Source: Alphaproteobacteria bacterium
Lineage (GTDB): Bacteria > Pseudomonadota > Alphaproteobacteria > Rickettsiales > SXRF01
NCBI GenBank assembly: GCA_046344715.1
Contig: JBKDKX010000016.1
Location: 4,194-68,193 of the forward strand
Direction: 5' to 3'
Length of the DNA: 64,000 nt
In this document: positions 7,410-56,565 of the stretch, one piece after another
Layout of the letters: each line of letters begins with the position of its first letter
Position numbering within the stretch: the first letter of the stretch is position 1
The notes under the pieces: generated by a model
Database searches by the model: none
Told to the model about the DNA's origin: nothing
What the model saw: only the letters and a program-made list of their open reading frames with translations
Position numbers and translations under genes: made by a program

Positions 7410-8756
7410 ATGAGCAAAGAACCTATTAAATTAAAACCAAAAAAGCGCAGTAAGAAAACGGCTGCCATAAAAAAAGCAAAGGGCGAGACCTCACGCATTG
7501 GCCATAACGCCATTCAGGCGGGCATGACCAAAAACCTCATTGCCAAAGGCCGTAAGTATTACACCTTCGCTTATAAGCCACGTGACATGATTTTGGATCA
7601 TGGCAAAGGTGCAATGGTATGGGATTTAGAAGGTAAGAGTTATGTGGATTTTGGCGCCGGTATCGCTGTTTCTGCCCTTGGTCATCACAAAAAAGAATTG
7701 ATTGATGCACTGCTCGATCAGGCAAACAAGCTCTGGCACACCAGCAATATGTTTTACACTGAGCCGGTGGTTCGCCTTGCCGAAGAATTGGTGAAAGCAT
7801 CAAAATTCGCCAAGCGCGTGTTTTTTACCAATTCAGGCGGTGAGGCCAATGAAGCGGCCATTAAACTCGCCCGCAAATATGCCGCTGATAAAGGCCATCC
7901 GCCGGAACGTCGTGATATTATCACCTTCACCGGTTCATTCCATGGCCGCACGATGGCAACTGTTACGGCAACTGCACAACCGAAATATCACGCGGGTTTT
8001 GAACCGCTTCCGGGTGGGTTCAAATATTGCCCATTCAATGATTTTGATGCCATCACTAGCATGGTCAACCAGAACACCTGCGCGGTGATGCTGGAGGTGG
8101 TGCAGGGCGAGGGCGGTATTACGCCAGTAGCCCCCGGCTTCCTGCTGCATGTGCAAAACCTCTGCCATAAATATGATGCGCTGTTGATTTTAGATCAGGT
8201 GCAGTGCGGCATGGGGCGTACCGGAAAATTATTCTCGCACTTTGCGGAAGCGGGTGTGAAACCAGATGTAGTTACCATGGCAAAAGGCCTTGGTGGTGGT
8301 TTCCCGATTGGGGCATGTTTGATTGGTGATAAGGCAGAAAAAACCTTCCAGTTTGGTAGCCACGGTTCTACCTTCGGTGGTAACCCGCTCGCATGTGCGG
8401 TTTCCCGCGTAATACTAAAAAAACTGCAAGCACCCGAAGCCATGAAAAATGTGCGCGATCGTGGCAAGGAATTGATGGATGCTTTGGACGCTATCAACAC
8501 GCAGTTTGGCGTATTCAAGGAAGTGCGTGGTCGTGGCCTTATGATTGGCGCAGAGCTAACACCGCAGTGGCATGGTAAGGCCGGTGAAATATGTGAAACT
8601 GCGCGTGCGCATGGACTCATCATGTTGCAGGCCGGGCCGAATGTGCTGCGTTTCCTGCCGCCACTTACCATCACAAAAGACGAAATGCAGAAGGGTATCG
8701 ACCGGCTGAATAAAACCATGACGGCGTATCTGGCGCGTCCGGGTGCAAAAAAATGA
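7410..8756 (+). CDS. argD: Acetylornithine/succinylornithine aminotransferase (class III PLP)
   Basis: GIAVSALGH, FTNSGGEANEAAIKLAR, DQVQCGMGRTGK and GSHGSTFGGNP motifs. It has an unusual ~38 aa Lys-rich N-terminal extension; an alternative start is M39 at 7524. Confidence 0.85.
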   Translation: MSKEPIKLKPKKRSKKTAAIKKAKGETSRIGHNAIQAGMTKNLIAKGRKYYTFAYKPRDMILDHGKGAMVWDLEGKSYVDFGAGIAVSALGHHKKELIDALLDQANKLWHTSNMFYTEPVVRLAEELVKASKFAKRVFFTNSGGEANEAAIKLARKYAADKGHPPERRDIITFTGSFHGRTMATVTATAQPKYHAGFEPLPGGFKYCPFNDFDAITSMVNQNTCAVMLEVVQGEGGITPVAPGFLLHVQNLCHKYDALLILDQVQCGMGRTGKLFSHFAEAGVKPDVVTMAKGLGGGFPIGACLIGDKAEKTFQFGSHGSTFGGNPLACAVSRVILKKLQAPEAMKNVRDRGKELMDALDAINTQFGVFKEVRGRGLMIGAELTPQWHGKAGEICETARAHGLIMLQAGPNVLRFLPPLTITKDEMQKGIDRLNKTMTAYLARPGAKK

Positions 8757-45588: not shown

Positions 45589-45654
45589 ATTCCTAAAACA
45601 CAAATGCGGCAGATAAAAATATTACCTGCCGCATTCTTATGTTATGGGCACTGA

Positions 45655-47709
45655 TTACAGGTTGTTATCAGGCTCGACGTTGCAATTGTCAAAATTCGTT
45701 TGCGCGACTGACTTATTCCAACCTTTCTGGAAGTAAGAGTTAGCGCAGTTTACCGTGGTGTTGCCTGCAATACCGCCCGCGGATGGAGCAAGGTCACCAA
45801 GGTTTCCACCGGCTGCCGGAGCAAGATTGCCCAACTGGTCAGGTGAAAGGTTGCCGAGGTTTGCAGGAGGTGTGCCGCCCTGGCCAAGTACGCCAAGATC
45901 CAAGCCACCACGATGCGTGAAGAACGGATCAACATAAGTGAAGAACTTATCGTTGATCTCGAAGTCACGGATCGAGAGGAACGGCCTGTCGAGCGGATCA
46001 ATAATTTCATTATTGAACGACACTGGAGGTGTGGCCGGAGCTGGAGCTGGCTCAGGTTCTGGCTCAGGTTCTGGCTCAGGTGTAGGTTCTGGCTGCGGCT
46101 GTGGTGCAGGAGCTGGTGCAGGAGCTGGTGCTGGAGCAGGAGCTGGTGCTGGAGCAGGAGCCGGAGCCGGAGCTGGTGCCGGAGCCGGAGCTGGTGCTGG
46201 AGCAGGAGCTGGTGCTGGAGCAGGAGCTGGTGCTGGAGCAGGAGCCGGAGCCGGAGCTGGTGCCGGAGCCGGAGCTGGTGCAGGAGCCGGAGCTGGTGCA
46301 GGAGCTGGTGCCGGAGCTGGTGCTGGTGCCGGAGCCGGAGCTGGTGCAGGAGCTGGGCTTGGACCTTGGCCACAATCACCAATACCGTTTACTGTCGCAC
46401 ATGGGCGGATGGTGCTGCCATCATCACCTTCATGGATTTTACGACCCTGAAGTTCTGGCGTTACACCTACGATAAAGATGTTTTCTTCATCAAGGAATAT
46501 GCCGTTATTATCATATACGCCATTGCTGCGGCCATTGATGATTACCTGGCCATCACCGGAAGGTGTACCGTTTTGCGTGGCATCAAGTGTTGCTTGCGAT
46601 GCAATATTTACGAGGCGATCATAACTGGTGTTATATACATCAGCATCTATCAGTATATCGCCGCCTGTATTGTTTGCACTATGTGAATCTAGCGTTACCT
46701 GGCCGGATGTGCCACCGCTGATAAGAATAGCGTTATCATTAATAGTAGTGTTGGTTGCTTTTGCTTTAATAGAGATATTACCACCTGCTTGAGAGGTGCC
46801 ATCGGTGCGCAAGGATGTCTGGCCAGTATCACCAGTAATAGAGATTACGTTGTCATATACACCGTTCAGTACATCAGCGCTGATGGTAATGGTGCCACCA
46901 GCCGTACTGGTGCCACTTGCGTTTAGTGAAGATTGGCCGCTGATTTGGATGGCATTGGCCATGTTAGCTGCAACTACTGGGCTGGTTACTTCGTAAGAGA
47001 GTAAGCCATCGCCTACAGGGTCAAGCGCAACCTGGAACGTCTGGCCTGCGCCAATAGCGATGTCGCCACCGCGTGCGATGAGCGATGCGCCATCGTTGAT
47101 TACAACGCGCTGGCCTTGCAGCACGATTTCACGGCCATTGCCAACACTCAGCGTTGAGTCTGTAACTGTGACGGTTGCGTTAACTGCACCAGCCTGATCA
47201 TAGTTCAACGTGTTGTTGCCAGCCATGAAGCCTGCAGTATCAGAAATGCCACGCGTGCTGATGGTGAGGCCGCCGCTAACGTTCATGGTTGCGCCATTTA
47301 CGTGGAAGCCGTTATTGTTGACAAGGATTACGCGACCATTAGCACTGAGCGTGCCTTGGAAGCTGGTTGCCGGACCAGAAATACGGTTAAGTGCAATAGC
47401 AGAAGAGTTTGGTTGGAAGAAAGCCACCGTCTGACCAGAAGTAGTGTCAAAGCCTGTCCAATCAATGATTACACGACTCGTAGACTGCTGAATGATGGTG
47501 GTGTTTGGCGCTGTAATGATATTTGCAGTACCGCTTACGACAGTTCCACCCGTTGGATCAGCGTGTACAAGTGTTGGGACAAGCGCCGTTGCAAACGCTG
47601 TGATGCTTGCGATGGCCTTCGCGGAGAGGACAGTGGTGTTCTTGAGCACATGATCCGGCACGACTACCGAACAGATTGCATTTTTCAGGTGTGTCTTAGT
47701 GGTTTTCAT
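45655..47709 (-). CDS. Short two-partner-secretion exoprotein (TpsA) with a haemagglutination-activity domain and a giant Pro-Ala tract
   Basis: TPS domain: GGTVVSGTANI..IIDWTGF..ALNRISG..ANGRVILVNNNGFHV. This is followed by beta-helix-like repeats, then a (PA)n/(PE)n tract, then a ~110 aa C-terminal domain with GNL repeats. Confidence 0.8.
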   Translation of the reverse strand: MKTTKTHLKNAICSVVVPDHVLKNTTVLSAKAIASITAFATALVPTLVHADPTGGTVVSGTANIITAPNTTIIQQSTSRVIIDWTGFDTTSGQTVAFFQPNSSAIALNRISGPATSFQGTLSANGRVILVNNNGFHVNGATMNVSGGLTISTRGISDTAGFMAGNNTLNYDQAGAVNATVTVTDSTLSVGNGREIVLQGQRVVINDGASLIARGGDIAIGAGQTFQVALDPVGDGLLSYEVTSPVVAANMANAIQISGQSSLNASGTSTAGGTITISADVLNGVYDNVISITGDTGQTSLRTDGTSQAGGNISIKAKATNTTINDNAILISGGTSGQVTLDSHSANNTGGDILIDADVYNTSYDRLVNIASQATLDATQNGTPSGDGQVIINGRSNGVYDNNGIFLDEENIFIVGVTPELQGRKIHEGDDGSTIRPCATVNGIGDCGQGPSPAPAPAPAPAPAPAPAPAPAPAPAPAPAPAPAPAPAPAPAPAPAPAPAPAPAPAPAPAPAPAPAPAPAPAPAPAPAPAPAPAPAPQPQPEPTPEPEPEPEPEPAPAPATPPVSFNNEIIDPLDRPFLSIRDFEINDKFFTYVDPFFTHRGGLDLGVLGQGGTPPANLGNLSPDQLGNLAPAAGGNLGDLAPSAGGIAGNTTVNCANSYFQKGWNKSVAQTNFDNCNVEPDNNL
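46031..46357. repeat. Tandem hexanucleotide-type repeat encoding the XP dipeptide tract (mostly Pro-Ala)
   Basis: Runs of gctggtgcaggagccgga-type units. All six frames give low-complexity ORFs (GAGAG, RSWC, ELVQ). Confidence 0.9.
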
Positions 47710-47895
47710 AGTGTACTCCGCAGTCTCATACTGTTAAGGTTATCAGCGAGGCTACTGCCTTTATAATCCGCTTAAACCCGATAGTTAAAATTTCGTTAAC
47801 TTTACTCATAAAAAAGGTAGAGTCAAGAAGTTTCCAAGGAACGGTCTAAAGCAGCAACATCGCCGGGAAATTTTATAAAATCATAAGGTTGGTGC

Positions 47896-49605
47896 CTAGA
47901 ACCGTCCCGTCATGCTAAAGAAAATACGAGGAGTGTTGGCATGGCCACCCTGATTGTTGGCTGGCCGCGTAAGCGGGTCGGCCACTTCAAGGTTGCCTGA
48001 GAGATTTTCGTTGAAGTTAGTGCGTAAACCAACTCCAGCTGAAGCAAGGCTTTGGCTGCCATCCACAGTGTCTTCTAGCCATACACGGCCGATATCATAA
48101 AATCCATAAAGCTGGAACGCCTGCAGTAATGGATCACCCAGCGTTTTCCCATAACGCAGCTCTACGCGGCCTGCTACGCCATGATCACCGGAGATTTCCG
48201 AAGGATCATAAGCACTGCCGAAAGAGGAGCCGCCAACAGAGAATTGTTCCGCAGCGAGCAGCTTATCAAATGAATACTGGCTGGTTGCAGCAGTAAACAG
48301 CGAGAAACCGTGTGGCAACGGCTGCGTGCGCGTGATATCAAAATTCACCTTGGTGAAATCCGCGCTGCCATCAGTGCGGGTGCGATCAGTGCCTGCATCG
48401 GTTGCGCCGAAAATATCCAACCCCTGACTCACCTGCAAATCCAAAAGATCCGCCCCACCGATCTGATCAACAAAGTCATAGGCTCCGCCGGCGCGCACAA
48501 CACGCAGCCTGTCTTTGTTCAGGTTGACATTGCCGAACACGTCAGTTTCGCTGTTACGCGTATCTGCAATGATGCGACCGTTCAGATTTTCCGCGCGTGA
48601 ACGCATGAATGGATGCACTAATTTTGCCTGAAAGAAATTAGAATGGCTATTAATGTCGAGTGATTTCAGAGAATCACCAGGCTTACTTTCCGTGAGAGAT
48701 CCGGACAGCACAAGGCGTGTTCCTTCATCGCTTATCTGCTGTTCATGCTGCAAATCAAAGAAACGCAACTCTTTGGTTGGGCTTGTGGTGATAAAGCGTA
48801 GCGCTGTGCGGTCATACAAGCCAAGCAGTGAGTTTGCCACCAAGGTAGCCGTATGCTGGAATGGGCCTACGAATTTGCTGCCGCGATTATCAATCGTATA
48901 CGATGCCTCGTAAGGTTTTTGTATCATGGTGACAACCATTTCGGCACTGCCGGCAGCGCGGCCAGGGCGCACGAGGCCTTTGGCGGTAGCACCTGGAAGA
49001 TCATCCATCAGAAGTAAATAGCGCTCAAGGTCAGCCACATTTACTGGCTTTTTTGCTTTCAGGCCTTCTGCATATAATTCAAGGCGTTTGCGTGCCTCAT
49101 CACCATCAACCTGGCCTTCAATACGCACATTGCTGATATACCCTTCAACAACATTGATACGCAGTGTGCCTTTGCCGATATCCTGTGCGGGCACCACGGC
49201 CTGTGACAATACATACCCGTTGTCGCGATAATGAGCGGTGATGGCTTTCGCCATATTATTAACATCGAGCAGGGATATCTCCTGACCAATCTTACCTTCG
49301 TATACGAAAGCCAACTGCTCATCTGAATACAAAGAATTGCCTTCAACATTCACCTGCTTCAGTTTGAAGCGGGTTTTTTCAAGTTTTTTGCGCATTTCAT
49401 CGGAAATAGCTTGTTCCTGCTGTTCTGTTTTTAGGTTTGTAGCGGGCAGGGACTGTTCTGGTGTGCGGAAACGCTTTTCAAGGTTTGCCGGATTCACGGA
49501 TGTCGGCACGTTCTGAGCAAAGGCTGGATTCAGAGAGGATGCAGAGGCTGCAACTGCAAGAAGTACAACAAATGTAATCTGACGATTCGGGAGAGAAAAG
49601 GGCAT
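47896..49605 (-). CDS. TpsB transporter (ShlB/FhaC/HecB family, POTRA plus 16-strand barrel)
   Basis: Signal peptide, a POTRA region (LKQVNVEGNSLY...) and a barrel ending in SMTGRF. Confidence 0.85.
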   Translation of the reverse strand: MPFSLPNRQITFVVLLAVAASASSLNPAFAQNVPTSVNPANLEKRFRTPEQSLPATNLKTEQQEQAISDEMRKKLEKTRFKLKQVNVEGNSLYSDEQLAFVYEGKIGQEISLLDVNNMAKAITAHYRDNGYVLSQAVVPAQDIGKGTLRINVVEGYISNVRIEGQVDGDEARKRLELYAEGLKAKKPVNVADLERYLLLMDDLPGATAKGLVRPGRAAGSAEMVVTMIQKPYEASYTIDNRGSKFVGPFQHTATLVANSLLGLYDRTALRFITTSPTKELRFFDLQHEQQISDEGTRLVLSGSLTESKPGDSLKSLDINSHSNFFQAKLVHPFMRSRAENLNGRIIADTRNSETDVFGNVNLNKDRLRVVRAGGAYDFVDQIGGADLLDLQVSQGLDIFGATDAGTDRTRTDGSADFTKVNFDITRTQPLPHGFSLFTAATSQYSFDKLLAAEQFSVGGSSFGSAYDPSEISGDHGVAGRVELRYGKTLGDPLLQAFQLYGFYDIGRVWLEDTVDGSQSLASAGVGLRTNFNENLSGNLEVADPLTRPANNQGGHANTPRIFFSMTGRF

Positions 49606-49825: not shown

Positions 49826-50278
49826 TTAGTTCATACCTTGCAGGTACTGAAGCTGCTCAACTTGTGCGGACTGGTTCATGATGGCGGAGTTGATGATGTC
49901 AACACTCAGCGACTGTTGTATGGAAATCAGCATGTTGTCATCAAGATTCTGGATAATCTGCGGTTGCAGCAGCTCCTGGATCTGGCTAGCGGTAAGGGCT
50001 GCCTGCGCAAGATTTTCAGTATTCACACTGACGTTTTGCAGCGTATCAAGCCCAACCTGAACGTTGGAGTAGAAATTAAAACCAATCAACATGCCGTTGA
50101 CGTTGATGAACCCACCGCGCATCTCGGCTAGTTCTGCATCATCTACTGCAGCACTGTTACCAAAAGTTTCTCCGGACATCTCATCAAGATCGCCAGCCTG
50201 AGCTGATGACGTGATGAATACGTTTGTAATCACTGATATAGCGAGTGCAAAAATAGCAAATTTCTTAAAGCAAAACAT
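49826..50278 (-). CDS. Small secreted N/Q-rich protein with a Sec signal plus a double-glycine pro-peptide motif
   Basis: Signal peptide ...SSAQA, then VDDAELAEMRGG (E-8, L-7, M-4, G-2, G-1). The C-terminal part is Q/N/I/L-rich. Confidence 0.55.
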   Translation of the reverse strand: MFCFKKFAIFALAISVITNVFITSSAQAGDLDEMSGETFGNSAAVDDAELAEMRGGFINVNGMLIGFNFYSNVQVGLDTLQNVSVNTENLAQAALTASQIQELLQPQIIQNLDDNMLISIQQSLSVDIINSAIMNQSAQVEQLQYLQGMN

Positions 50279-50294
50279 AATATCTCCAAAAATC

Positions 50295-51020
50295 CTAATA
50301 ATATCCTGGTGAATATACGGTATTCAGCGCAACCGCGCCAAGTTGTCCGGTGGTGAGAGCATTACGAAACTGGGTGATGCCATAGGGCTTCCATGAATCG
50401 TCTGAGTTAAAGTTCTTTTTTGCGACCTGCATGTTATTGGTGATGACAAACAGAATGCCATTCCACATGGATTCAAACTCTTTGCGGTCATAAAACACAA
50501 GACCGAGCGTTGGGTCGCCCACGGAAACGCGGTTTTTATCAACGCCTTTTATTACCACAAAATGCAGATAATTTTTCTTGTTAATCAATACAATGGCGGG
50601 AATTTTCACTTTCGCGAGCTTATCAAGTGACTCGCGGAACCCTTCTGCTTCATACCCTATTGCATTGAGATACTGCTTCATATCCAGCAGTGAGAAACCT
50701 TCACGTTTAATTTTTTCTGCGTCACCATGTTGAATCATGGATTCCAAGGCTTCTATTTCAGAAATGGGGTGATCGTAATGATAGGTAAGTAGCGTGGCTA
50801 AAGCGGCTGATCCACAGCTGAAATCATATTTTTGCCTAACGACCTTGACATAGCGGCGTTCTAGGAATGTTTTGGTCTTTACCGTATAGTCACCGCCACC
50901 GCCTCGTATGTAAATGTCACTATTTGCTGAGGAGGGGGATGCAATTGAAGCGGTGGATAACAACACACCTGCCACCAGTGCCTGCCTGAATATAAATTTT
51001 GTGGTGATGGTGGCAGGCAT
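50295..51020 (-). CDS. Stand-alone exported C39-family cysteine peptidase
   Basis: N-terminal signal peptide, catalytic Cys context QKYDFSCGSAALATLL and His context LHFVVIKGVD. There is no ABC transporter domain. Confidence 0.75.
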   Translation of the reverse strand: MPATITTKFIFRQALVAGVLLSTASIASPSSANSDIYIRGGGGDYTVKTKTFLERRYVKVVRQKYDFSCGSAALATLLTYHYDHPISEIEALESMIQHGDAEKIKREGFSLLDMKQYLNAIGYEAEGFRESLDKLAKVKIPAIVLINKKNYLHFVVIKGVDKNRVSVGDPTLGLVFYDRKEFESMWNGILFVITNNMQVAKKNFNSDDSWKPYGITQFRNALTTGQLGAVALNTVYSPGYY

Positions 51021-51032
51021 GTGATTATGTAC

Positions 51033-51392
51033 TTATTGCAGGAAGTTCACGTTGACCGTGGTGGCTTGCTGTATGATCACATTATTTCCACTGTTCTGGA
51101 TAACGCTGGTTAGGCCAGCAACGTTGTTGAGCGCGCCCTCACTGATGCTGTTTGCACCCGATACGTTGTTGGAGGAGCTGTTGCCTTGCAGGTTAGCGGA
51201 CAGGTTTGAAGAAAGCAGGGTTACGTTATTAAACGTACCGCGATATGTATCGAGTTCGGCGTCATTCACGGCCACGCTAAAACTGAGTGATTCATCTTCA
51301 CCAGTGGCCAGTGTTTCTGCCATAGAGGTGACGGGCAGCATAGAAGCTGTGGTAACCATCAGGGTAAAAAATGTTTTAGCAAAGTTTTTCAT
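51033..51392 (-). CDS. Small secreted N/S/Q-rich protein, paralogue of 49826-50278
   Basis: Signal peptide MKNFAKTFFTLMVTTASMLPVTSMA, a pro-motif AVNDAELDTYRGTF, and a C-terminal motif GLTSVIQNSGNNVIIQQATTVNV. Confidence 0.5.
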   Translation of the reverse strand: MKNFAKTFFTLMVTTASMLPVTSMAETLATGEDESLSFSVAVNDAELDTYRGTFNNVTLLSSNLSANLQGNSSSNNVSGANSISEGALNNVAGLTSVIQNSGNNVIIQQATTVNVNFLQ

Positions 51393-51512
51393 AGTCTTTT
51401 CCGTTAGGCAGTGTCTGATTTTTATATTCTTCCTGAGAGGGTGGGGTTTTTTGCAAAACCCCACCATTCCCAAGACTTTTTGTAAGGAGCGAGCTCCTTA
51501 CGGTATCAACTC

Positions 51513-52766
51513 TTAGTTACCTACAGAGATGTCACCGGTAGAGATGGTAACAGCTTGCTGGGTGTTAGCGTTGATGCCGGTGTTCTGGCTAACAGCGATT
51601 ACGCCGTTTGCACCAGTGAACGCGCCACCAGCAACGGTGTTGTCACCGTAACCAGCAACGTCTGAACGACGGTGGAATTCAACGCTAGAGTTGGTAACAG
51701 AAGAAGCGAGGTCAGTGTTGGTGATTTTTACTTTGATATCACCAATGCTTACGCTGTTATCAACACTGCTATCATTGTTGCTGTTCTCAGTTGTAGAATC
51801 ATTATCAATGATGCTTGCAGCGCCAGTTGCCTGGTTACCGCCACCGTTAGTATTGGTGGTGTTGTTGCTAGCAGTTGTGTTGTTGCTGTTAAGAGCCACA
51901 TCAACATCACCAACGGTCAAGCTGTTATCGCTGTTATCGTTGTTGCTGCTGTTAACACTGTTATTGCTGTTATCATTGTTGCTATCAGCAGTATTGACAC
52001 TGTTGTTGCTGTTATCAACACTGTTGTCATTGTTGCTGTCGTTAGTGCTGTTGTTGCTGTTGTCGTTACCGAAGTTAGACACAGCTACATCACCAACGGT
52101 AAGGTTACCATCGTTATCCTGGTTGTTGCTGTTTTCGGTGGTAGAATCATTATCAATGATGCTAGCAGCGCCAGTAGCATTGTTGCCGCTGTTGCTGTTG
52201 CCGCTGTCAGAAACAGCAAGGCTTACATCACCAACAGTCGTGTTACCATCATTGTCCTGATCCTGGTCATTGGTGGTTACATTAGAGGTGGTGTTGGTGT
52301 TAACACTGTTGTTGCTGTTGTCAGTGTTAACGCTGTTGTCGTTACCATTGTCAGAAACATTCACATCGCCAACATTGAGGCTGTTGTTTGTGTTGTCAGT
52401 GTTAACGCTGTTGTCGTTGTTGCTGCTGTTGGTGCTGCTGTTGTTGTTGCTAGCAGTTGTGTTGGTTTCAGAATCGTTATCAATGATGCTTGCAGCGCCA
52501 GTAGCGAGGTTGCCATCATCGTTGTCATTGTTAACGCTGTTGTCGTTGTTGCTGCTGTTAGAGCTGCTGTTGCTGTTGTCGTTACCGCTATCAGCTACAG
52601 ACAGGCTAACATCACCAACGGTGGTATCATTGCTGCTGGTGGTGGTAGTGGTGGTGTTGCCGAGGTTGCTACCATCGTTGTTATCGTTGTTGTTGGTGTC
52701 AGCAAAAGCTACTGAGGTGCTCAGAGCAAATGCAGATACACCAGCGAGAAGTAATTGTTTAGACAT
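51513..52766 (-). CDS. Secreted, extremely N/D/S/T-rich repeat protein
   Basis: Signal peptide; ATGAASIIDNDS occurs 4 times, alternating with (T/N)VGDVxVS..GNDNS modules. The C-terminal GVIAVSQNTGINANTQQAVTIS motif is shared with the small protein at 51033. Confidence 0.6.
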   Translation of the reverse strand: MSKQLLLAGVSAFALSTSVAFADTNNNDNNDGSNLGNTTTTTTSSNDTTVGDVSLSVADSGNDNSNSSSNSSNNDNSVNNDNDDGNLATGAASIIDNDSETNTTASNNNSSTNSSNNDNSVNTDNTNNSLNVGDVNVSDNGNDNSVNTDNSNNSVNTNTTSNVTTNDQDQDNDGNTTVGDVSLAVSDSGNSNSGNNATGAASIIDNDSTTENSNNQDNDGNLTVGDVAVSNFGNDNSNNSTNDSNNDNSVDNSNNSVNTADSNNDNSNNSVNSSNNDNSDNSLTVGDVDVALNSNNTTASNNTTNTNGGGNQATGAASIIDNDSTTENSNNDSSVDNSVSIGDIKVKITNTDLASSVTNSSVEFHRRSDVAGYGDNTVAGGAFTGANGVIAVSQNTGINANTQQAVTISTGDISVGN

Positions 52767-53074: not shown

Positions 53075-54352
53075 CTAGAATGCACCAATATCAAACGTCA
53101 TTGGGGTTCTGAAAATCAGGCGAATATCTGGTGCGTCATCCGTCAAGCCTGCGCTGAGTGTGAAGTTCAGGTTGGTGGTGTCATTGAGTAGGTAGGAATA
53201 TCCTAAATCCAGACTGCCGACCTGAAGGATGGTTGAATTTGCGATGTTTGCATCATTAATTTTGGTTTTGAGTACTGTGCTGTGGCTATAGCCTAAGCTG
53301 ATAGAGCTTTTCTCGTTGAGCGAAAGACTTGATCCGAAGCTCGCACTGATAGAATCGCCAGGTTCAACCTTGCCATATGTAGGGAAGCTGCGGCCAAGAC
53401 TGTGCAGATAGCCTACGTTAGAATAATACACCAGCGGATCAGACGGGAAAATAGCCGTTACACTGGGTTGGAAGGCATAAAAACCGGAACCGGTAGGAAG
53501 TTCTGTTTGTACGCCATTGACTACTGGTACCTCAAATGGACCAGTACCGGTGATGGTTTTGAAGCGCATATTGCCTACGAAATACGGCCAGCCATCCTGT
53601 CCATCATTGATCTGATAGTGTGCACCAACTTCAATATCGCCTAAATCGGCGCCATCCACTGTTGTAAGTGTTTCAGGTGGATTGGGAACACCAAGCTGGC
53701 GTGTAGACGTTGCATCGCTGCGGTATACATATGGTACACGCGCATCAACCTCAAAACGGTTTGTTACGCCATAGCGTAAGCCAACAGACGGTGACAAAAT
53801 GTCACGTTTTACCTTTGAGATATCAAATGCGCCGATGTTCAGCGCAGGGATAATACTGAATCCGCTGATACTCACGCGTGTTGATGTGGAGTGCGTATAT
53901 TCCACGGCAGGCGTTACAACTAGTTTGCCTTTTTGCAACAATACGCCTCCCTCTTCAATCACCGCTGCGATTTCAGGTGGTTTTTCAGTAGATTGTTTGC
54001 GATCGGTTCCAACTTCCTGAGGTACTGGCTTACTATCGGCAGAGCTTGATTGCGTTGGAGCATGAGAATCTTGCTGTGGAATTGGCTTGCCTGTAACCTT
54101 GCTGAATTGCATCTGCAATTTTTCAAACTGCACGCGCTCACGTGCAAAATCTGCGCGTTGGCGTTCCAGTATTTTCTGCTGTTCATCAAGCTTCTTTTCC
54201 TGATCGGCAAGGCGCTTCGATTGCATTTCCATTGCTTTAAGTAGTGCGGATACATCACCATTTTCTTCTTTTGCGAAGGATGTGCTGCTGACGCAGGTCG
54301 CGACGGTGAAGCAAGCGATAAAGGCAAATTTTCTAGAACGCTGGAAAAACAT
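53075..54352 (-). CDS. Outer-membrane protein: signal peptide, coiled coil, Pro/Ser/Gln-rich linker and beta-barrel (FapF-like architecture)
   Basis: Heptad-rich LKAMEMQSKRLADQEKKLDEQQKILERQRADFARERVQFEKLQMQ, a low-complexity linker, and alternating-hydrophobic strands ending in TFDIGAF. Confidence 0.65.
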   Translation of the reverse strand: MFFQRSRKFAFIACFTVATCVSSTSFAKEENGDVSALLKAMEMQSKRLADQEKKLDEQQKILERQRADFARERVQFEKLQMQFSKVTGKPIPQQDSHAPTQSSSADSKPVPQEVGTDRKQSTEKPPEIAAVIEEGGVLLQKGKLVVTPAVEYTHSTSTRVSISGFSIIPALNIGAFDISKVKRDILSPSVGLRYGVTNRFEVDARVPYVYRSDATSTRQLGVPNPPETLTTVDGADLGDIEVGAHYQINDGQDGWPYFVGNMRFKTITGTGPFEVPVVNGVQTELPTGSGFYAFQPSVTAIFPSDPLVYYSNVGYLHSLGRSFPTYGKVEPGDSISASFGSSLSLNEKSSISLGYSHSTVLKTKINDANIANSTILQVGSLDLGYSYLLNDTTNLNFTLSAGLTDDAPDIRLIFRTPMTFDIGAF

Positions 54353-54444: not shown

Positions 54445-55482
54445 TCACAGCTGTAGCGATTCTGCCACGTCTAATGCCGCGTAAGTGAATATTGCGCGTG
54501 CCCCGGCGCGCTTGAAGGCAAGTAGGCTTTCCAACATCACGGCATCGCCGTCAATCCAGCCATTGGCGGCGGCGGCCTTTATCATCGCATATTCACCACT
54601 TACCTGATAGGCGAACACTGGAACATTAAAGCTATGCGCAGCTCTGTGAACAATATCCAGATAGGCAATGCCTGGTTTCACCATTACCATATCAGCACCT
54701 TCAGCGATATCCATGGCGATTTCGCGCATGGCTTCATCGCTGTTGGCTGGGTTTATCTGGTAGTTACGTTTGTCAGCTTTTCCAAGATTTCCGGCAGATC
54801 CAACGGCATCACGGAACGGTCCATACAGGCTAGAGGCATATTTGGCGGCGTATGAGAGTATGAGCGTGTTGTGGAATCCTTCTTGTTCTAGAGTGCTGCG
54901 AATCGCGCCAATGCGTCCATCCATCATGTCCGATGGCGCAACAATATCACATCCGGCTTTGGCCTGAACCAGGGCCTGTTTGCATAAAGCTTCAACCGTT
55001 TTGTCATTCACAACAACGCCATTTTCCACAATGCCGTCCTGCCCATGTGAGGTGTAAGGGTCGAGGGCGACATCGGTGATAATTCCGATCTCTGGTACGG
55101 CACTTTTGAGTTCTTTGATGGCTCTGCACACCAGATTATCTTCTGAAAAAGCGAGTGCGCCATCCGGTGTTTTTAGTTTGGCATCTATTACAGGAAATAA
55201 TGCGATTGCAGGGATATTAAGTTTGTTGGCTAACTTTACTCTTTTAATTAATATATCCAATGTGATACGAGAAACACCAGGTAGTGATGCAATGGGGGTT
55301 TCTGTATTTGTGCCTTCCTGAATAAACACCGGCCAGATGATGTCACTAGGGTGTAATCTGTGTTCGGCCACCAGTTCGCGGCACCAGCTAGACATGCGCG
55401 TGCGGCGCAGGCGGGTGGAGGGGAAGGTGATTGGTGACTGGTGGATGGTGGATGGTGGCATAAACAACGCTTGAATATTCAC
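54445..55482 (-). CDS. hemB: Porphobilinogen synthase
   Basis: RLRRTR...LI.PVFIQEG, APSDMMDGR and MVKPG motifs; Schiff-base lysine context. Confidence 0.9.
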   Translation of the reverse strand: MNIQALFMPPSTIHQSPITFPSTRLRRTRMSSWCRELVAEHRLHPSDIIWPVFIQEGTNTETPIASLPGVSRITLDILIKRVKLANKLNIPAIALFPVIDAKLKTPDGALAFSEDNLVCRAIKELKSAVPEIGIITDVALDPYTSHGQDGIVENGVVVNDKTVEALCKQALVQAKAGCDIVAPSDMMDGRIGAIRSTLEQEGFHNTLILSYAAKYASSLYGPFRDAVGSAGNLGKADKRNYQINPANSDEAMREIAMDIAEGADMVMVKPGIAYLDIVHRAAHSFNVPVFAYQVSGEYAMIKAAAANGWIDGDAVMLESLLAFKRAGARAIFTYAALDVAESLQL

Positions 55483-55533
55483 TAAAAATAACCTTTATAA
55501 CCTTGCTATACTATTTTTATCATATAGGCGTCA

Positions 55534-56565
55534 ATGAATTCACCAGTCACCAACCACCAGTTACCATCCACCGCAAAGCGTATCCTCTCCGGCGTTCAGC
55601 CTACAGGTAATCTCCATCTGGGTAACTATCTGGGGGCAATACGTAATTGGGTGGCGTTGCAGCAGGATTATGAATGTTTTTACATGTTGGCTGATCTGCA
55701 TGCCATCACTGTGCCGCAGGATCCAGAAAAATTGCGTGCCTCCGTGCGCGAAAGTGCCGCGGCACTTATCGCCTGCGGGGTTGACCCGAAAAAAAGCGCG
55801 ATATTTCCGCAATCGTGTGTAACGGCGCATGCGGAACTGAACTGGATTTTGGCCTGCCACACGCCGCTGGGCTGGCTCAACCGTATGACACAATTTAAGG
55901 AAAAAGCCGGTAAAGATAAGGAAAAAGCGGTGCTTGGGCTTTATGCCTATCCGGTGCTGATGGCAGCCGACATTCTGCTATATAAAGCAACGCACGTGCC
56001 GGTAGGCGAAGACCAGAAACAGCATATTGAGCTTACGCGTGATATTGCCGGTGCCTATAATCGTTATTACAATCAAGAATATTTCATGTTGCCAGAGCCG
56101 TTAATTTTGGGTGAAGCGACGCGTGTGATGAGCCTGCGCGATGGCAAAAAGAAAATGAGTAAATCTGATGAATCAGATTATTCACGCATCAACCTGACCG
56201 ATGATGCCGATACCATCGCGCTTAAATTCCGTAAGGCAAAGTCGGATATGATAGAGGGTATTTCGTGGGATCCGGAGAATCGGCCGGAAGTAGCCAATTT
56301 ACTTACCATGTATGCATCATTCAAGAATGTAACGCGTGAGGCGGCGCTTAAAGAGTGTGACGGTAAGAATTTTTCTACCTTCAAGCAAATGCTCACCGAT
56401 GCGGCGGTTGCCCATCTTTCGCCGATTACAGGGAAAATGCGCGAGTTGATGGCTGACAGAAACTATCTTGATGCTGTACTCAAAGATGGAAGCAACAACG
56501 CGCGCGCGGTCGCTGATAAAACTATCCGTGAAGTGAAGGAATCTGTAGGATTTCTTGCCTTTTGA
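55534..56565 (+). CDS. trpS: Tryptophan--tRNA ligase
   Basis: HIGH-type motif GNLHLGNYLG and KMSKS. Confidence 0.95.
   Translation: MNSPVTNHQLPSTAKRILSGVQPTGNLHLGNYLGAIRNWVALQQDYECFYMLADLHAITVPQDPEKLRASVRESAAALIACGVDPKKSAIFPQSCVTAHAELNWILACHTPLGWLNRMTQFKEKAGKDKEKAVLGLYAYPVLMAADILLYKATHVPVGEDQKQHIELTRDIAGAYNRYYNQEYFMLPEPLILGEATRVMSLRDGKKKMSKSDESDYSRINLTDDADTIALKFRKAKSDMIEGISWDPENRPEVANLLTMYASFKNVTREAALKECDGKNFSTFKQMLTDAAVAHLSPITGKMRELMADRNYLDAVLKDGSNNARAVADKTIREVKESVGFLAF

What the first reader, a model, noticed from the sequence alone, without database searches (positions are those of the whole stretch)
49826..51392. Sec signal plus double-glycine pro-peptide next to a periplasmic stand-alone C39 peptidase
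The 150-aa protein has a normal Sec signal (...SSAQA). About 25 residues later it has VDDAELAEMRGG. This fits the classical double-glycine leader consensus at positions E-8, L-7, hydrophobic -4 and GG-2/-1. That consensus is normally cleaved by C39 domains of cytoplasmic-face ABC exporters.

Here the adjacent C39 protein carries its own signal peptide and no ABC domain. This implies GG-type processing in the periplasm, after Sec export. The paralogue on the other side of the peptidase keeps the same pro-motif (AVNDAELDTYRGTF) but has G-T instead of G-G. The shared motif is AV(N/D)DAEL..(Y/M)RG(G/T)F.
Basis: partly seen in the sequence, partly recalled or inferred. Interest (0 to 1): 0.65.

Follow-up and report, generated by a model that had tools for sequence, protein, structure and literature searches.

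The report
Double-glycine leader in Fap-like secretion locus
Two small exported proteins flanking a periplasmic C39 cysteine protease each carry a classical double-glycine leader motif after their Sec signal peptide. The same arrangement recurs in 79 of 80 related genomes and points to the long-sought cleavage site of FapD-type proteases in Fap-like fibre secretion systems.

Summary
The 150-aa protein (49826-50278, minus strand) has a Sec-type signal ending AQA28. It then has V45-DDAELAEMRGG-56, which matches the classical leader register (hydrophobic -12/-7/-4, E-8, GG). The 119-aa protein (51033-51392) has V42-NDAELDTYRGT-53. Between them lies a 241-aa stand-alone C39 peptidase with its own signal peptide, no ABC domain and an intact Q/C/H/D catalytic set.

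This is a distant relative of the Pseudomonas Fap amyloid secretion system. A FapF-like outer-membrane channel (53075-54352) and a 417-aa repeat protein lie just upstream in the same orientation.

In 79 of 80 loci fetched from other genomes, the gene directly after the C39 gene encodes a signal peptide followed by this leader (L-7 74/79, R-3 70/79, G-2 79/79, G-1 70/79, F+1 68/79). The gene before the C39 gene carries a looser copy in 48 of 52 upstream proteins examined.

Pseudomonas FapE has the same motif, but -1 is always R (80/80). This probably explains why it was not recognised as a double-glycine site.

Periplasmic C39 action is already known for FapD, but its substrate is not. Cleavage here is inferred, not shown. 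I rate this a new variant of a known kind.

The parts
53075..54352 (-). FapF-like outer-membrane channel (425 aa). It has a signal peptide, an N-terminal coiled coil (about residues 27-85) and a C-terminal beta-barrel.
   Evidence: NCBIfam FapF NF058560 E=7.5e-41, 140 bits, full-length match 13-420 to 5-420/420 (below the 700-bit equivalog cutoff). FilC scores 58 bits. Pfam Phenol_MetA_deg E=2.3e-5. A homologue lies within 10 kb of the C39 gene in 70 of 80 related loci.
51513..52766 (-). 417-aa Asn/Ser/Asp/Thr-rich repeat protein with a signal peptide (AFA|D) and no leader motif. It is the putative major secreted or fibre subunit. The C-terminus carries a FapB/C-type repeat, AFTGANGVIAVSQNTGINANTQQ.
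   Evidence: Translation. BLASTP against Pseudomonas FapB aligns AFTGANGVIAVSQNTGI with AFTGSRGVIQVNQSAGV, pairwise E=1e-3. There are no Pfam or NCBIfam hits. An orthologue sits in the syntenic locus L001.
51033..51392 (-). 119-aa small exported protein. It has signal peptide M1-A25, a pro-region, a leader, and a C-terminal unit GLTSVIQNSGNNVIIQQATTVNV.
   Evidence: Homologues lie immediately upstream of the C39 gene in 51 of 80 loci. 48 of the 52 upstream proteins examined (those 51 plus the window's own) carry a leader-like motif. No family assignment was found.
51234..51269 (-). Leader motif of the 119-aa protein, V42-NDAELDTYRG-T53, with G-T at -2/-1 and F54 at +1.
   Evidence: The closest orthologue (L001) has ELDEYRGGF, that is G-G. 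RGT also occurs in P0164 and P0170.
50295..51020 (-). Stand-alone periplasmic C39 cysteine peptidase (FapD-like), 241 aa. The signal peptide covers about residues 1-32. The catalytic residues are Q63, C69 (50814-50816), H153 (50562-50564) and D169 (50514-50516). It also has a conserved C-terminal tail.
   Evidence: - Pfam PF03412 E=1.1e-24. NCBIfam FapD 154 bits (cutoff 330) and FilB 138 bits.
- AlphaFold2 core pLDDT is above 90.
- Foldseek matches ComA PEP 3k8u and LahT150 with bound leader 6mpz at rmsd 2.0 A.
- The A2 profile's best match in the PDB is 6mpz, E=1.3e-12.
- Each of the four catalytic residues is present in at least 81 of 82 relatives; the only exceptions are alignment gaps.
49826..50278 (-). 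150-aa FapE-like exported protein. It has signal peptide M1-A28, pro-region G29-G56, then a FapE-type N-domain (FINVNGMLIGFNF...) and a C-terminal IIQNLDDNMLISIQQ unit.
   Evidence: -.
- An HMM of the family, built without this protein, hits it at E=4.3e-9.
- BLASTP against the Pseudomonas FapE N-terminus gives E=4e-5 over VDDAELAEMRGGFINVNGMLIGF.
- GGAGA lies 5 nt before the ATG.
50111..50146 (-). Double-glycine-type leader of the 150-aa protein, V45(-12) D D A E49(-8) L50(-7) A E M53(-4) R54 G55 G56. The predicted scissile bond is G56|F57.

Best explanation
The finding is the core of a Fap-like, Sec-dependent two-step secretion or fibre-assembly locus. All genes lie on the minus strand in this order: FapF-like outer-membrane channel, 417-aa repeat subunit, 119-aa small subunit, FapD-like C39 peptidase, 150-aa FapE-like subunit.

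Proposed mechanism:

1. All five proteins cross the inner membrane through Sec and lose their signal peptides. This is inferred from sequence features and from FapD experiments.
2. The two small proteins then expose a pro-peptide that ends in an amphipathic leader. This leader has the classical double-glycine architecture: hydrophobic residues at -12, -7 and -4, Glu at -8, and Gly at -2.
3. The periplasmic C39 enzyme binds this helix in the same groove that ABC-transporter-fused C39 domains use. It cuts after position -1, which is G56|F57 in the 150-aa protein and probably T53|F54 in the 119-aa protein. This step is inferred.
4. Removal of the leader licenses the matured subunits to hand over to, or open, the FapF-like trimeric channel. 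Outside the cell they would prime or anchor polymerisation of the repeat protein. This step is inferred by analogy with the model for Pseudomonas FapE, FapD and FapF.

Shown here: the anatomy, the homologies, the conservation of the motif and of the gene order, and the intact active site.

Not shown: cleavage, its exact position, and the fate of the products.
For: **Fap relationship**
- The C39 protein's best NCBIfam hits are FapD (154 bits) and FilB. The OMP hits FapF over its full length.
- The 150-aa protein aligns with the Pseudomonas FapE N-terminus across the motif.
- The NCBIfam FapE model is the family most often hit by the 58 downstream-gene proteins scanned (7 of 58).

**Conservation of the module**
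- In 80 loci from Alpha-, Beta-, Gamma- and Deltaproteobacteria and a few other phyla, a FapE-like N-domain HMM hits the ORF directly 3' of the C39 gene in 79 loci.
- A 119-aa-like gene lies directly 5' of the C39 gene in 51 loci. A FapF-like gene lies within 10 kb in 70 loci.

**Leader logo, downstream family (n=79)**
- -12: V/L/I 66
- -11: S 27
- -8: E 38
- -7: L 69, M 5
- -4: L/M/V/I 55
- -3: R 70
- -2: G 79
- -1: G 70
- +1: F/Y 73
- This is the LSxxELxxIxGG register of classical leaders.

**Independent profile links**
- The only non-Fap families hit more than once by these proteins are double-glycine-leader bacteriocin families: Pfam Lactococcin (3 members, best E=9.5e-4, residues 42-57 of the closest orthologue) and BLP_Lacticasei (2). 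There are also single hits to Bacteriocin_IIc and cyan_ocin_like.

**Enzyme competence**
- Each of the catalytic Q, C, H and D residues is present in at least 81 of 82 sequences.
- The fold matches leader-bound LahT150 and ComA PEP at 2.0 A.

**Operon structure**
- The three genes are separated by gaps of 12 and 16 nt.

**Literature**
- FapD is periplasmic. Its C38A mutant abolishes FapC secretion, and its substrate is unknown. FapE is the only Fap protein lacking N-terminal peptides (first peptide at residue 72) (PMC5557850 and its Dataset 6; PMC6173800).
Against: - No experimental cleavage data exist for this locus or for any close relative.
- Position -1 is not Gly in a sizeable minority. 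It is T in the window's 119-aa protein. In the upstream family only 20 of 48 have G, and 12 have R, 4 K and 4 Q. Three Sphingomonad-type loci have K and one has T in the downstream family. All 80 Pseudomonas-type FapE sequences have R.
- Canonical C39 S1 pockets accept only Gly, Ala or Ser (my own knowledge). Either this clade has relaxed P1 specificity, or some members are bound but not cut.
- I found no residue in the C39 alignment that co-varies with the -1 residue.
- AlphaFold2 gave no usable model of the 150-aa protein (pLDDT 46). No complex could be modelled.
- The missing FapE N-terminal peptides in the published MS could also reflect poor detectability of long hydrophobic tryptic peptides.
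Confidence: 0.6

Rival explanations
1. The leader-like helix is a docking or targeting signal that is not cut at the Gly-Gly position. It would tether the subunits to the C39 protein (acting partly as a chaperone, like the inactive C39-like domain of HlyB) or to the FapF-like channel. The protease would cut a different target, for example the linker of the FapF-like protein.
For: - Position -1 is variable (T/K/R/Q/M), which is hard to reconcile with a Gly-Gly-specific S1 pocket.
- Rouse et al. also proposed FapF linker cleavage.
- C39-like domains that bind but do not cut are known (3zua and HlyB appear among the fold matches).
Against: - The catalytic Q, C, H and D residues are each kept in at least 81 of 82 relatives, so the enzyme cuts something.
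- In the downstream family both glycines are almost invariant (79/79 and 70/79). A purely helical docking signal would not require this.
- One family member (P0137) goes from its signal peptide almost directly to GGGF with no leader. This is what would be expected if everything before F+1 is dispensable in the mature protein.
Confidence: 0.25
2. The motif is a structural element of the mature proteins, for example the first strand or turn of the fibre fold. Its resemblance to double-glycine leaders would then be convergent.
For: In the downstream family the motif runs straight into a conserved segment (RGGF..x..G..I.FG...NG) that belongs to the same HMM.
Against: - The same motif, in the same register, heads a second family whose following sequence is unrelated.
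- It always lies N-terminal, 15-60 residues after the signal peptide, and is preceded by non-conserved sequence.
- It is always encoded next to a C39 peptidase.
- It draws profile hits to bacteriocin leader families.
Confidence: 0.08
3. The N-terminal hydrophobic segments are not Sec signals. The proteins would be ordinary double-glycine peptides processed in the cytoplasm by an ABC-fused C39 encoded elsewhere.
For: None specific. No SignalP run was possible.
Against: - All have a positively charged n-region, a hydrophobic h-region of 12 or more residues and AxA-type sites.
- The leader lies 17-30 residues beyond that site rather than at the extreme N-terminus.
- The neighbouring C39 has no ABC or transmembrane domain.
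- FapD works in the periplasm when given an OmpA signal sequence (PMC5557850).
Confidence: 0.02

Closest known systems
Pseudomonas Fap functional-amyloid system (FapA-F), in particular FapD (periplasmic C39 peptidase), FapE and FapF
   Same: - A Sec-exported stand-alone C39 peptidase.
- Directly followed by a small exported protein whose N-terminus carries [LIVM]xDxE[LM]xxLRGx[FY].
- A trimeric-barrel-type OMP with an N-terminal coiled coil.
- Asn/Gln-rich repeat subunits with a G.I.V.Q..G motif.
   Different: - All NCBIfam scores are far below the equivalog cutoffs: FapD 154 vs 330 and FapF 140 vs 700, with no FapE hit for the window protein.
- No FapA is present.
- Gene order differs, with the fapF-like gene first.
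- The FapB/FapC slot is filled by a 417-aa N/S/D-rich protein and a 119-aa single-unit protein.
- A second protein (119 aa) also carries the leader, whereas Pseudomonas FapB and FapC do not.
- The leader ends in canonical G-G here, against the fixed G-R of Pseudomonas FapE (80/80).
Double-glycine leader peptides and the C39 domains of peptidase-containing ABC transporters (PCAT1, ComA, LahT)
   Same: - The C39 fold and catalytic residues.
- The leader register, with hydrophobic -12/-7/-4, E-8 and G-2 G-1.
- Weak profile hits to the Lactococcin and Bacteriocin_IIc leaders.
   Different: - The enzyme is not fused to an ABC transporter and sits in the periplasm.
- The leader is not at the extreme N-terminus but follows a Sec signal peptide and a variable spacer.
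- Export across the inner membrane is by Sec, and across the outer membrane by a FapF-type barrel.
- R is nearly fixed at -3 and F at +1.
- Position -1 tolerates T/K/R in some lineages.
Acinetobacter Fil putative pilus system (FilB C39 peptidase, FilC)
   Same: The NCBIfam FilB (138 bits) and FilC (58 bits) models hit the C39 and OMP proteins. This is the same superfamily of C39 plus FapF-like pairs.
   Different: The scores are lower than for FapD and FapF and far below the cutoffs (475 and 630). No Fil subunit models hit the small proteins. I found no mechanistic literature on FilB or FilC.

Membership tests
Fap system (NCBIfam equivalogs FapD/FapE/FapF) | FapD equivalog score of at least 330 bits | tested here: not met
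   154.2 bits, E=3e-45, residues 26-195. It is a homologue, not an equivalog.
Fap system (NCBIfam equivalogs FapD/FapE/FapF) | FapF equivalog score of at least 700 bits | tested here: not met
   140.3 bits, with a full-length alignment 13-420 to 5-420/420.
Fap system (NCBIfam equivalogs FapD/FapE/FapF) | FapE equivalog score of at least 250 bits | tested here: not met
   The 150-aa protein has no hit at E<=0.1. There is only a local N-terminal similarity to FapE (BLASTP E=4e-5). Six other family members hit the FapE model weakly.
Fap system (NCBIfam equivalogs FapD/FapE/FapF) | FapB/FapC subunits with three imperfect amyloid repeats, plus the FapA chaperone | tested here: not met
   There is only one FapB/C-like repeat at the C-terminus of the 417-aa protein (pairwise E=1e-3) and one degenerate unit in each small protein. 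No FapA-like ORF and no FapA hit were found.
Broader FapD/FapF-like superfamily (co-localised C39 plus FapF-like genes) | A Sec-signal C39 peptidase encoded near a FapF-like barrel | tested here: met
   (70 of 80 related loci). The superfamily is noted but not characterised in PMC3792158 and PMC6173800.
Peptidase family C39 | Papain-like fold with catalytic Gln, Cys, His and Asp | tested here: met
   Pfam E=1.1e-24. Q63, C69, H153 and D169 are invariant in A2. Foldseek gives rmsd 2.0 A to 3k8u and 6mpz.
Peptidase-containing ABC transporter (PCAT) systems | C39 domain fused to the transmembrane and ATPase domains of an ABC exporter, acting at the cytoplasmic face | tested here: not met
   The protein is 241 aa with only the C39 domain and an N-terminal signal peptide.
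Double-glycine leader peptides | Consensus with hydrophobic residues at -12, -7 and -4, Glu at -8, and Gly-Gly (or Gly-Ala/Ser) at -2/-1 | tested here: met
   The 150-aa protein has V-12, E-8, L-7, M-4 and GG. It is the only strict-pattern hit in the window. The 119-aa protein fails only at -1 (T).
Double-glycine leader peptides | Leader at the extreme N-terminus of a precursor that lacks a Sec signal | tested here: not met
   The leader starts 17 residues after a predicted signal-peptidase site.
Double-glycine leader peptides | Cleavage directly after Gly-Gly by the cognate C39 enzyme | not testable with these tools
   This needs biochemistry or N-terminal mapping.

The most novel reading that the evidence does not exclude
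A very widespread, uncharacterised Sec-dependent secretion pathway uses a classical double-glycine leader as a periplasmic, not cytoplasmic, processing and secretion signal. It includes more than 7000 C39 protein clusters and at least 599 C39-encoding stretches in one-genome-per-species collections.

In this pathway a free periplasmic C39 protease would remove the leader from two families of small subunits before they pass through a FapF-type outer-membrane channel.

The FapE-FapD pair of the Pseudomonas amyloid system would be a derived member in which -1 Gly became Arg. That change would have hidden the cleavage site from earlier workers.
Probability: 0.5. Interest if true: 0.75.

Novelty: new variant of a known kind. 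Interest (0 to 1): 0.6.

Why it matters
The substrate and cleavage site of FapD have been open since 2017. FapD is the periplasmic C39 protease that Pseudomonas biofilm-amyloid secretion depends on. The published view is that Fap proteins lack a canonical C39 site.

This locus and its relatives show a canonical double-glycine leader sitting after the Sec signal of the FapE-like partner. Pseudomonas FapE has the same leader with one substitution (G-R).

That gives a precise and cheap prediction: cleavage at RG(G/R)|(F/Y). It can be tested by N-terminal mapping with a non-tryptic protease and by point mutants.

It also extends double-glycine leader and C39 biology from cytoplasmic ABC exporters to the periplasm. 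In addition, it defines two unannotated small-protein families that mark thousands of uncharacterised Fap-like loci.

Tried and rejected
- **AlphaFold2 of the 150-aa protein.** With its shallow alignment it gave pLDDT 46 and no information. A complex with the C39 protein could not be modelled with the tools at hand.
- **Co-variation between C39 residues and the -1 residue.** I compared loci with non-Gly at -1 (K, T, R) against Gly loci and found nothing convincing. There were too few independent lineages.
- **Word-index homology search for the 150-aa protein.** It found only 4 relatives. The family became visible only through synteny and an exhaustive profile search (130 representatives).
- **Retrieving Pseudomonas FapE from published MS peptides.** This returned only fragments. 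The operon was recovered through one of them, and that copy of fapE is frameshifted.
- **Pfam, NCBIfam and PDB sequence searches.** They give no family for the 119-aa, 150-aa or 417-aa proteins.
- **Promoter and terminator consensus scans.** They were no better than shuffled sequence.
- **TpsB/TpsA as part of the module.** I considered this and rejected it. The pair accompanies the C39 gene only in the one closely related genome.
- **The C39 protein's own RGGGG (residues 39-43) as a self-cleavage site.** Rejected, because it has no L-7/E-8 context and it sits in a predicted beta-hairpin.
- **Literature searches.** They found no paper describing this leader in FapE-like proteins. The library does not include most subscription journals.
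Full report
**1. What is in the window**

All genes of interest lie on the minus strand. In order of transcription they are:

| Coordinates | Size | Description |
|---|---|---|
| 53075-54352 | 425 aa | Signal peptide, heptad-rich N-terminal segment, C-terminal barrel |
| 51513-52766 | 417 aa | Asn/Ser/Asp/Thr-rich repeat protein |
| 51033-51392 | 119 aa | Small protein |
| 50295-51020 | 241 aa | C39 peptidase |
| 49826-50278 | 150 aa | Small protein |
| 47896-49605 and 45655-47709 | 569 and 684 aa | TpsB/TpsA two-partner secretion pair |

The three genes named in the finding are separated by only 12 and 16 nt. The 119-aa gene starts at the ATG at 51392, which agrees with the database protein P0133.

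**2. The observation**

- In the 150-aa protein the motif is A44-VDDAELAEMRGG-F57.
- In the 119-aa protein it is A41-VNDAELDTYRGT-F54.
- Counting back from G56 gives V-12, E-8, L-7, M-4, G-2 and G-1. This is the register of classical double-glycine leaders.

All three proteins start with a positively charged n-region, a hydrophobic h-region and an AxA-type site: AQA|G29, SMA|E26 and SSA|N33. SignalP was not available.

A strict leader pattern matches only once in all six frames of the 64-kb window, at this site.

**3. The enzyme**

- Pfam Peptidase_C39 scores E=1.1e-24 over residues 58-196, and there is no ABC or membrane domain.
- The AlphaFold2 core has pLDDT above 90.
- It superposes at about 2.0 A on the peptidase domains of ComA (3k8u) and LahT150 with bound leader (6mpz), and it also matches PCAT1.
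- The family profile's best match in the PDB is 6mpz, E=1.3e-12.
- Q63, C69, H153 and D169 are each present in at least 81 of 82 relatives; the only exceptions are alignment gaps.

**4.

- NCBIfam's best hits for the C39 protein are FapD (154 bits) and FilB (138 bits). For the 425-aa OMP they are FapF (140 bits, full length) and FilC. All are well below the equivalog cutoffs.
- The 417-aa protein ends in AFTGANGVIAVSQNTGI, which resembles the FapB repeat AFTGSRGVIQVNQSAGV.
- The locus is therefore a distant relative of the Pseudomonas Fap functional-amyloid secretion system.
- In that system FapD is known to be a periplasmic C39 protease. Its catalytic Cys is needed for FapC secretion through FapF. 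Its substrate is undetermined. FapE is the only component whose N-terminal roughly 70 residues are not seen by MS. The authors stated that Fap proteins lack canonical C39 sequences (PMC5557850; PMC6173800; a 2025 review, PMC12822426).
- Earlier surveys noted that FapD and FapF belong to much larger, uncharacterised families (PMC3792158).

**5. Comparative test**

- The stand-alone C39 protein has more than 7000 database clusters.
I kept the best 80 loci, from Alpha-, Beta-, Gamma- and Deltaproteobacteria and a few others.
- In 67 loci a simple pattern already finds a signal peptide followed by [LMIV]xxx[RKV]GG[FYL] in the ORF starting roughly 10-230 nt after the C39 gene in most loci.
- An HMM of that N-domain finds the ORF in 79 of 80 loci. 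It also hits the window's 150-aa protein, which was not in the seed, at E=4.3e-9.
- Logo for the downstream family, n=79:

| Position | Residues (count of 79) |
|---|---|
| -12 | V/L/I 66 |
| -11 | S 27 |
| -10 | D/E 45 |
| -8 | E 38 |
| -7 | L 69, M 5 |
| -4 | L/M/V/I 55 |
| -3 | R 70 |
| -2 | G 79 |
| -1 | G 70 |
| +1 | F 68, Y 5 |

- The strict classical pattern is roughly 300-fold enriched at this position compared with all other six-frame sequence.
- When 58 family members were scanned individually, the only recurring database families were NCBIfam FapE (7 members) and double-glycine-leader bacteriocin families. These were Lactococcin (3) and BLP_Lacticasei (2), with single hits to Bacteriocin_IIc and cyan_ocin_like.
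- An exhaustive profile search found 130 cluster representatives. Most of those inspected are small proteins with the same motif.

**6. The second family**

- Homologues of the 119-aa protein lie immediately upstream of the C39 gene in 51 of 80 loci.
- 48 of the 52 upstream proteins examined (those 51 plus the window's own) carry the same kind of leader. The counts of 48 are: -12 V/L 38; -7 L 43; -3 R 31 and S 11; -2 G 39 and A 9.
- Position -1 is loose in this family: G 20, R 12, K 4, Q 4, T 2, M 2.
- The window's G-T is one such variant. Its closest orthologue (L001, a fully syntenic Rickettsiales-labelled MAG) has G-G.
- Both families end in a related unit, (V/I)IQN..(G/D)N..IQ....(V/I)N.

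**7. Link to canonical FapE**

- I recovered a Pseudomonas synxantha fap operon (L081). Its FapE N-terminus reads ...IELKDAEMAELRGRYVMPGRIISFG.
- This aligns with the window's VDDAELAEMRGGFINVNGMLIGF (pairwise E=4e-5).
- In 80 further Pseudomonas-type FapE sequences from metagenomes, the motif is always [LIVM]x D x E [LM] x x L R G R [YF].
- Canonical FapE therefore keeps the whole leader, but Arg is fixed at -1.
- This explains why the site was not recognised as a double-glycine site. It also means tryptic MS could not distinguish FapD cleavage after R40 from trypsin cleavage.

**8. Interpretation**

The best-supported reading is a periplasmic counterpart of double-glycine processing.
1. Sec export exposes a pro-peptide whose amphipathic leader docks on the free C39 enzyme.
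2. The enzyme cuts after -1.
3. This releases subunits that are competent for passage through the FapF-like channel.

The near-invariance of both glycines in the FapE-like family argues for cleavage rather than docking alone. So do the universally intact active site and one homologue that lacks everything before GGGF (P0137).

The main caveat is the non-Gly -1 in the upstream family and in Pseudomonas. This requires either relaxed P1 specificity or members that are bound but not cut. I found no co-varying enzyme residue. Cleavage itself remains untested.

**9. Novelty**

A periplasmic stand-alone C39 in a Fap-type system is already known. I found three things undescribed in the searchable literature:
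- The conserved classical leader placed after a Sec signal.
- Its presence in two small-protein families flanking the enzyme across hundreds of species.
- Its homology to the FapE N-terminus.

The locus fails every Fap equivalog threshold and differs in composition and gene order. I therefore rate it a new variant of a known kind.

Noticed in passing
window 51393-51512 (minus strand): The 120-nt spacer between the 417-aa gene and the 119-aa gene folds into two strong hairpins (MFE -42 kcal/mol, z=-5.0 against shuffles). No U-tract follows them. This could be an mRNA-stabilising or attenuating element that sets a high ratio of major subunit to accessory proteins, as in fimbrial operons.
   Followed up: partly
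window 45655-49605 (minus strand): A two-partner secretion pair lies directly downstream of the Fap-like genes. It comprises TpsB (ShlB/POTRA_2) and a 684-aa TpsA with a TPS domain and a long (Pro-Ala)n tract followed by (Pro-Glu)n. A strong terminator-like hairpin sits at 45602-45636. The pair is kept in the syntenic MAG locus L001 but in none of the other 79 loci.
   Followed up: partly
window 51513-52766 (minus strand): The 417-aa protein consists almost entirely of N/S/D/T repeats (NDNS, VGDV.(V/L)). It has three copies of ATGAASIIDNDS(E/T)T. It has no family assignment. Its L001 orthologue is 479 aa with a different repeat filling but the same C-terminal Fap-like unit.
   Followed up: partly
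window 50295-50430 and 50892-50903 (C39 gene, minus strand): The C39 protein has two conserved extras outside the catalytic domain. The first is a GGGG turn (residues 40-43; family consensus GGGGxxNVKV) in a predicted beta-hairpin just after the signal peptide. The second is a roughly 45-residue C-terminal tail (FN...W....AP.G.A....L....L.LP...(D/E)F) that nearly always ends in an aromatic residue. The tail could be a docking element for the channel. In Pseudomonas FapD the tail reads PVGDAELMDFGF, which looks oddly like the leader.
   Followed up: partly
L081 7646-8387: The fapE gene of the Pseudomonas synxantha genome used for comparison is split by a frameshift into ORFs 7646-8056 and 7989-8387. 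Only the 3' part is annotated, as a 128-aa 'Fap system putative outer membrane protein'.
   Followed up: no
P0137 (database protein): This FapE-like homologue goes from its signal peptide almost straight to GGGFLNVNG, with no leader helix. It may be a natural 'pre-matured' variant. Its genomic context was not examined.
   Followed up: no
window 54445-56565; L001 4223-6331: hemB (porphobilinogen synthase) and trpS flank the locus in the window and also in the Rickettsiales-labelled MAG CAZYBO010000003. The C39 proteins share 61% identity. The window therefore probably comes from a related uncultured alphaproteobacterium.
   Followed up: partly
L014, L020, L040, L045, L051, L066, L073, L075 (Halomonas-type loci): In these loci the FapF-like gene lies about 2.3-2.6 kb downstream on the opposite strand, and no 119-aa-like gene was found upstream of the C39 gene. 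This is a different sub-architecture of the same module. I did not analyse it further.
   Followed up: no
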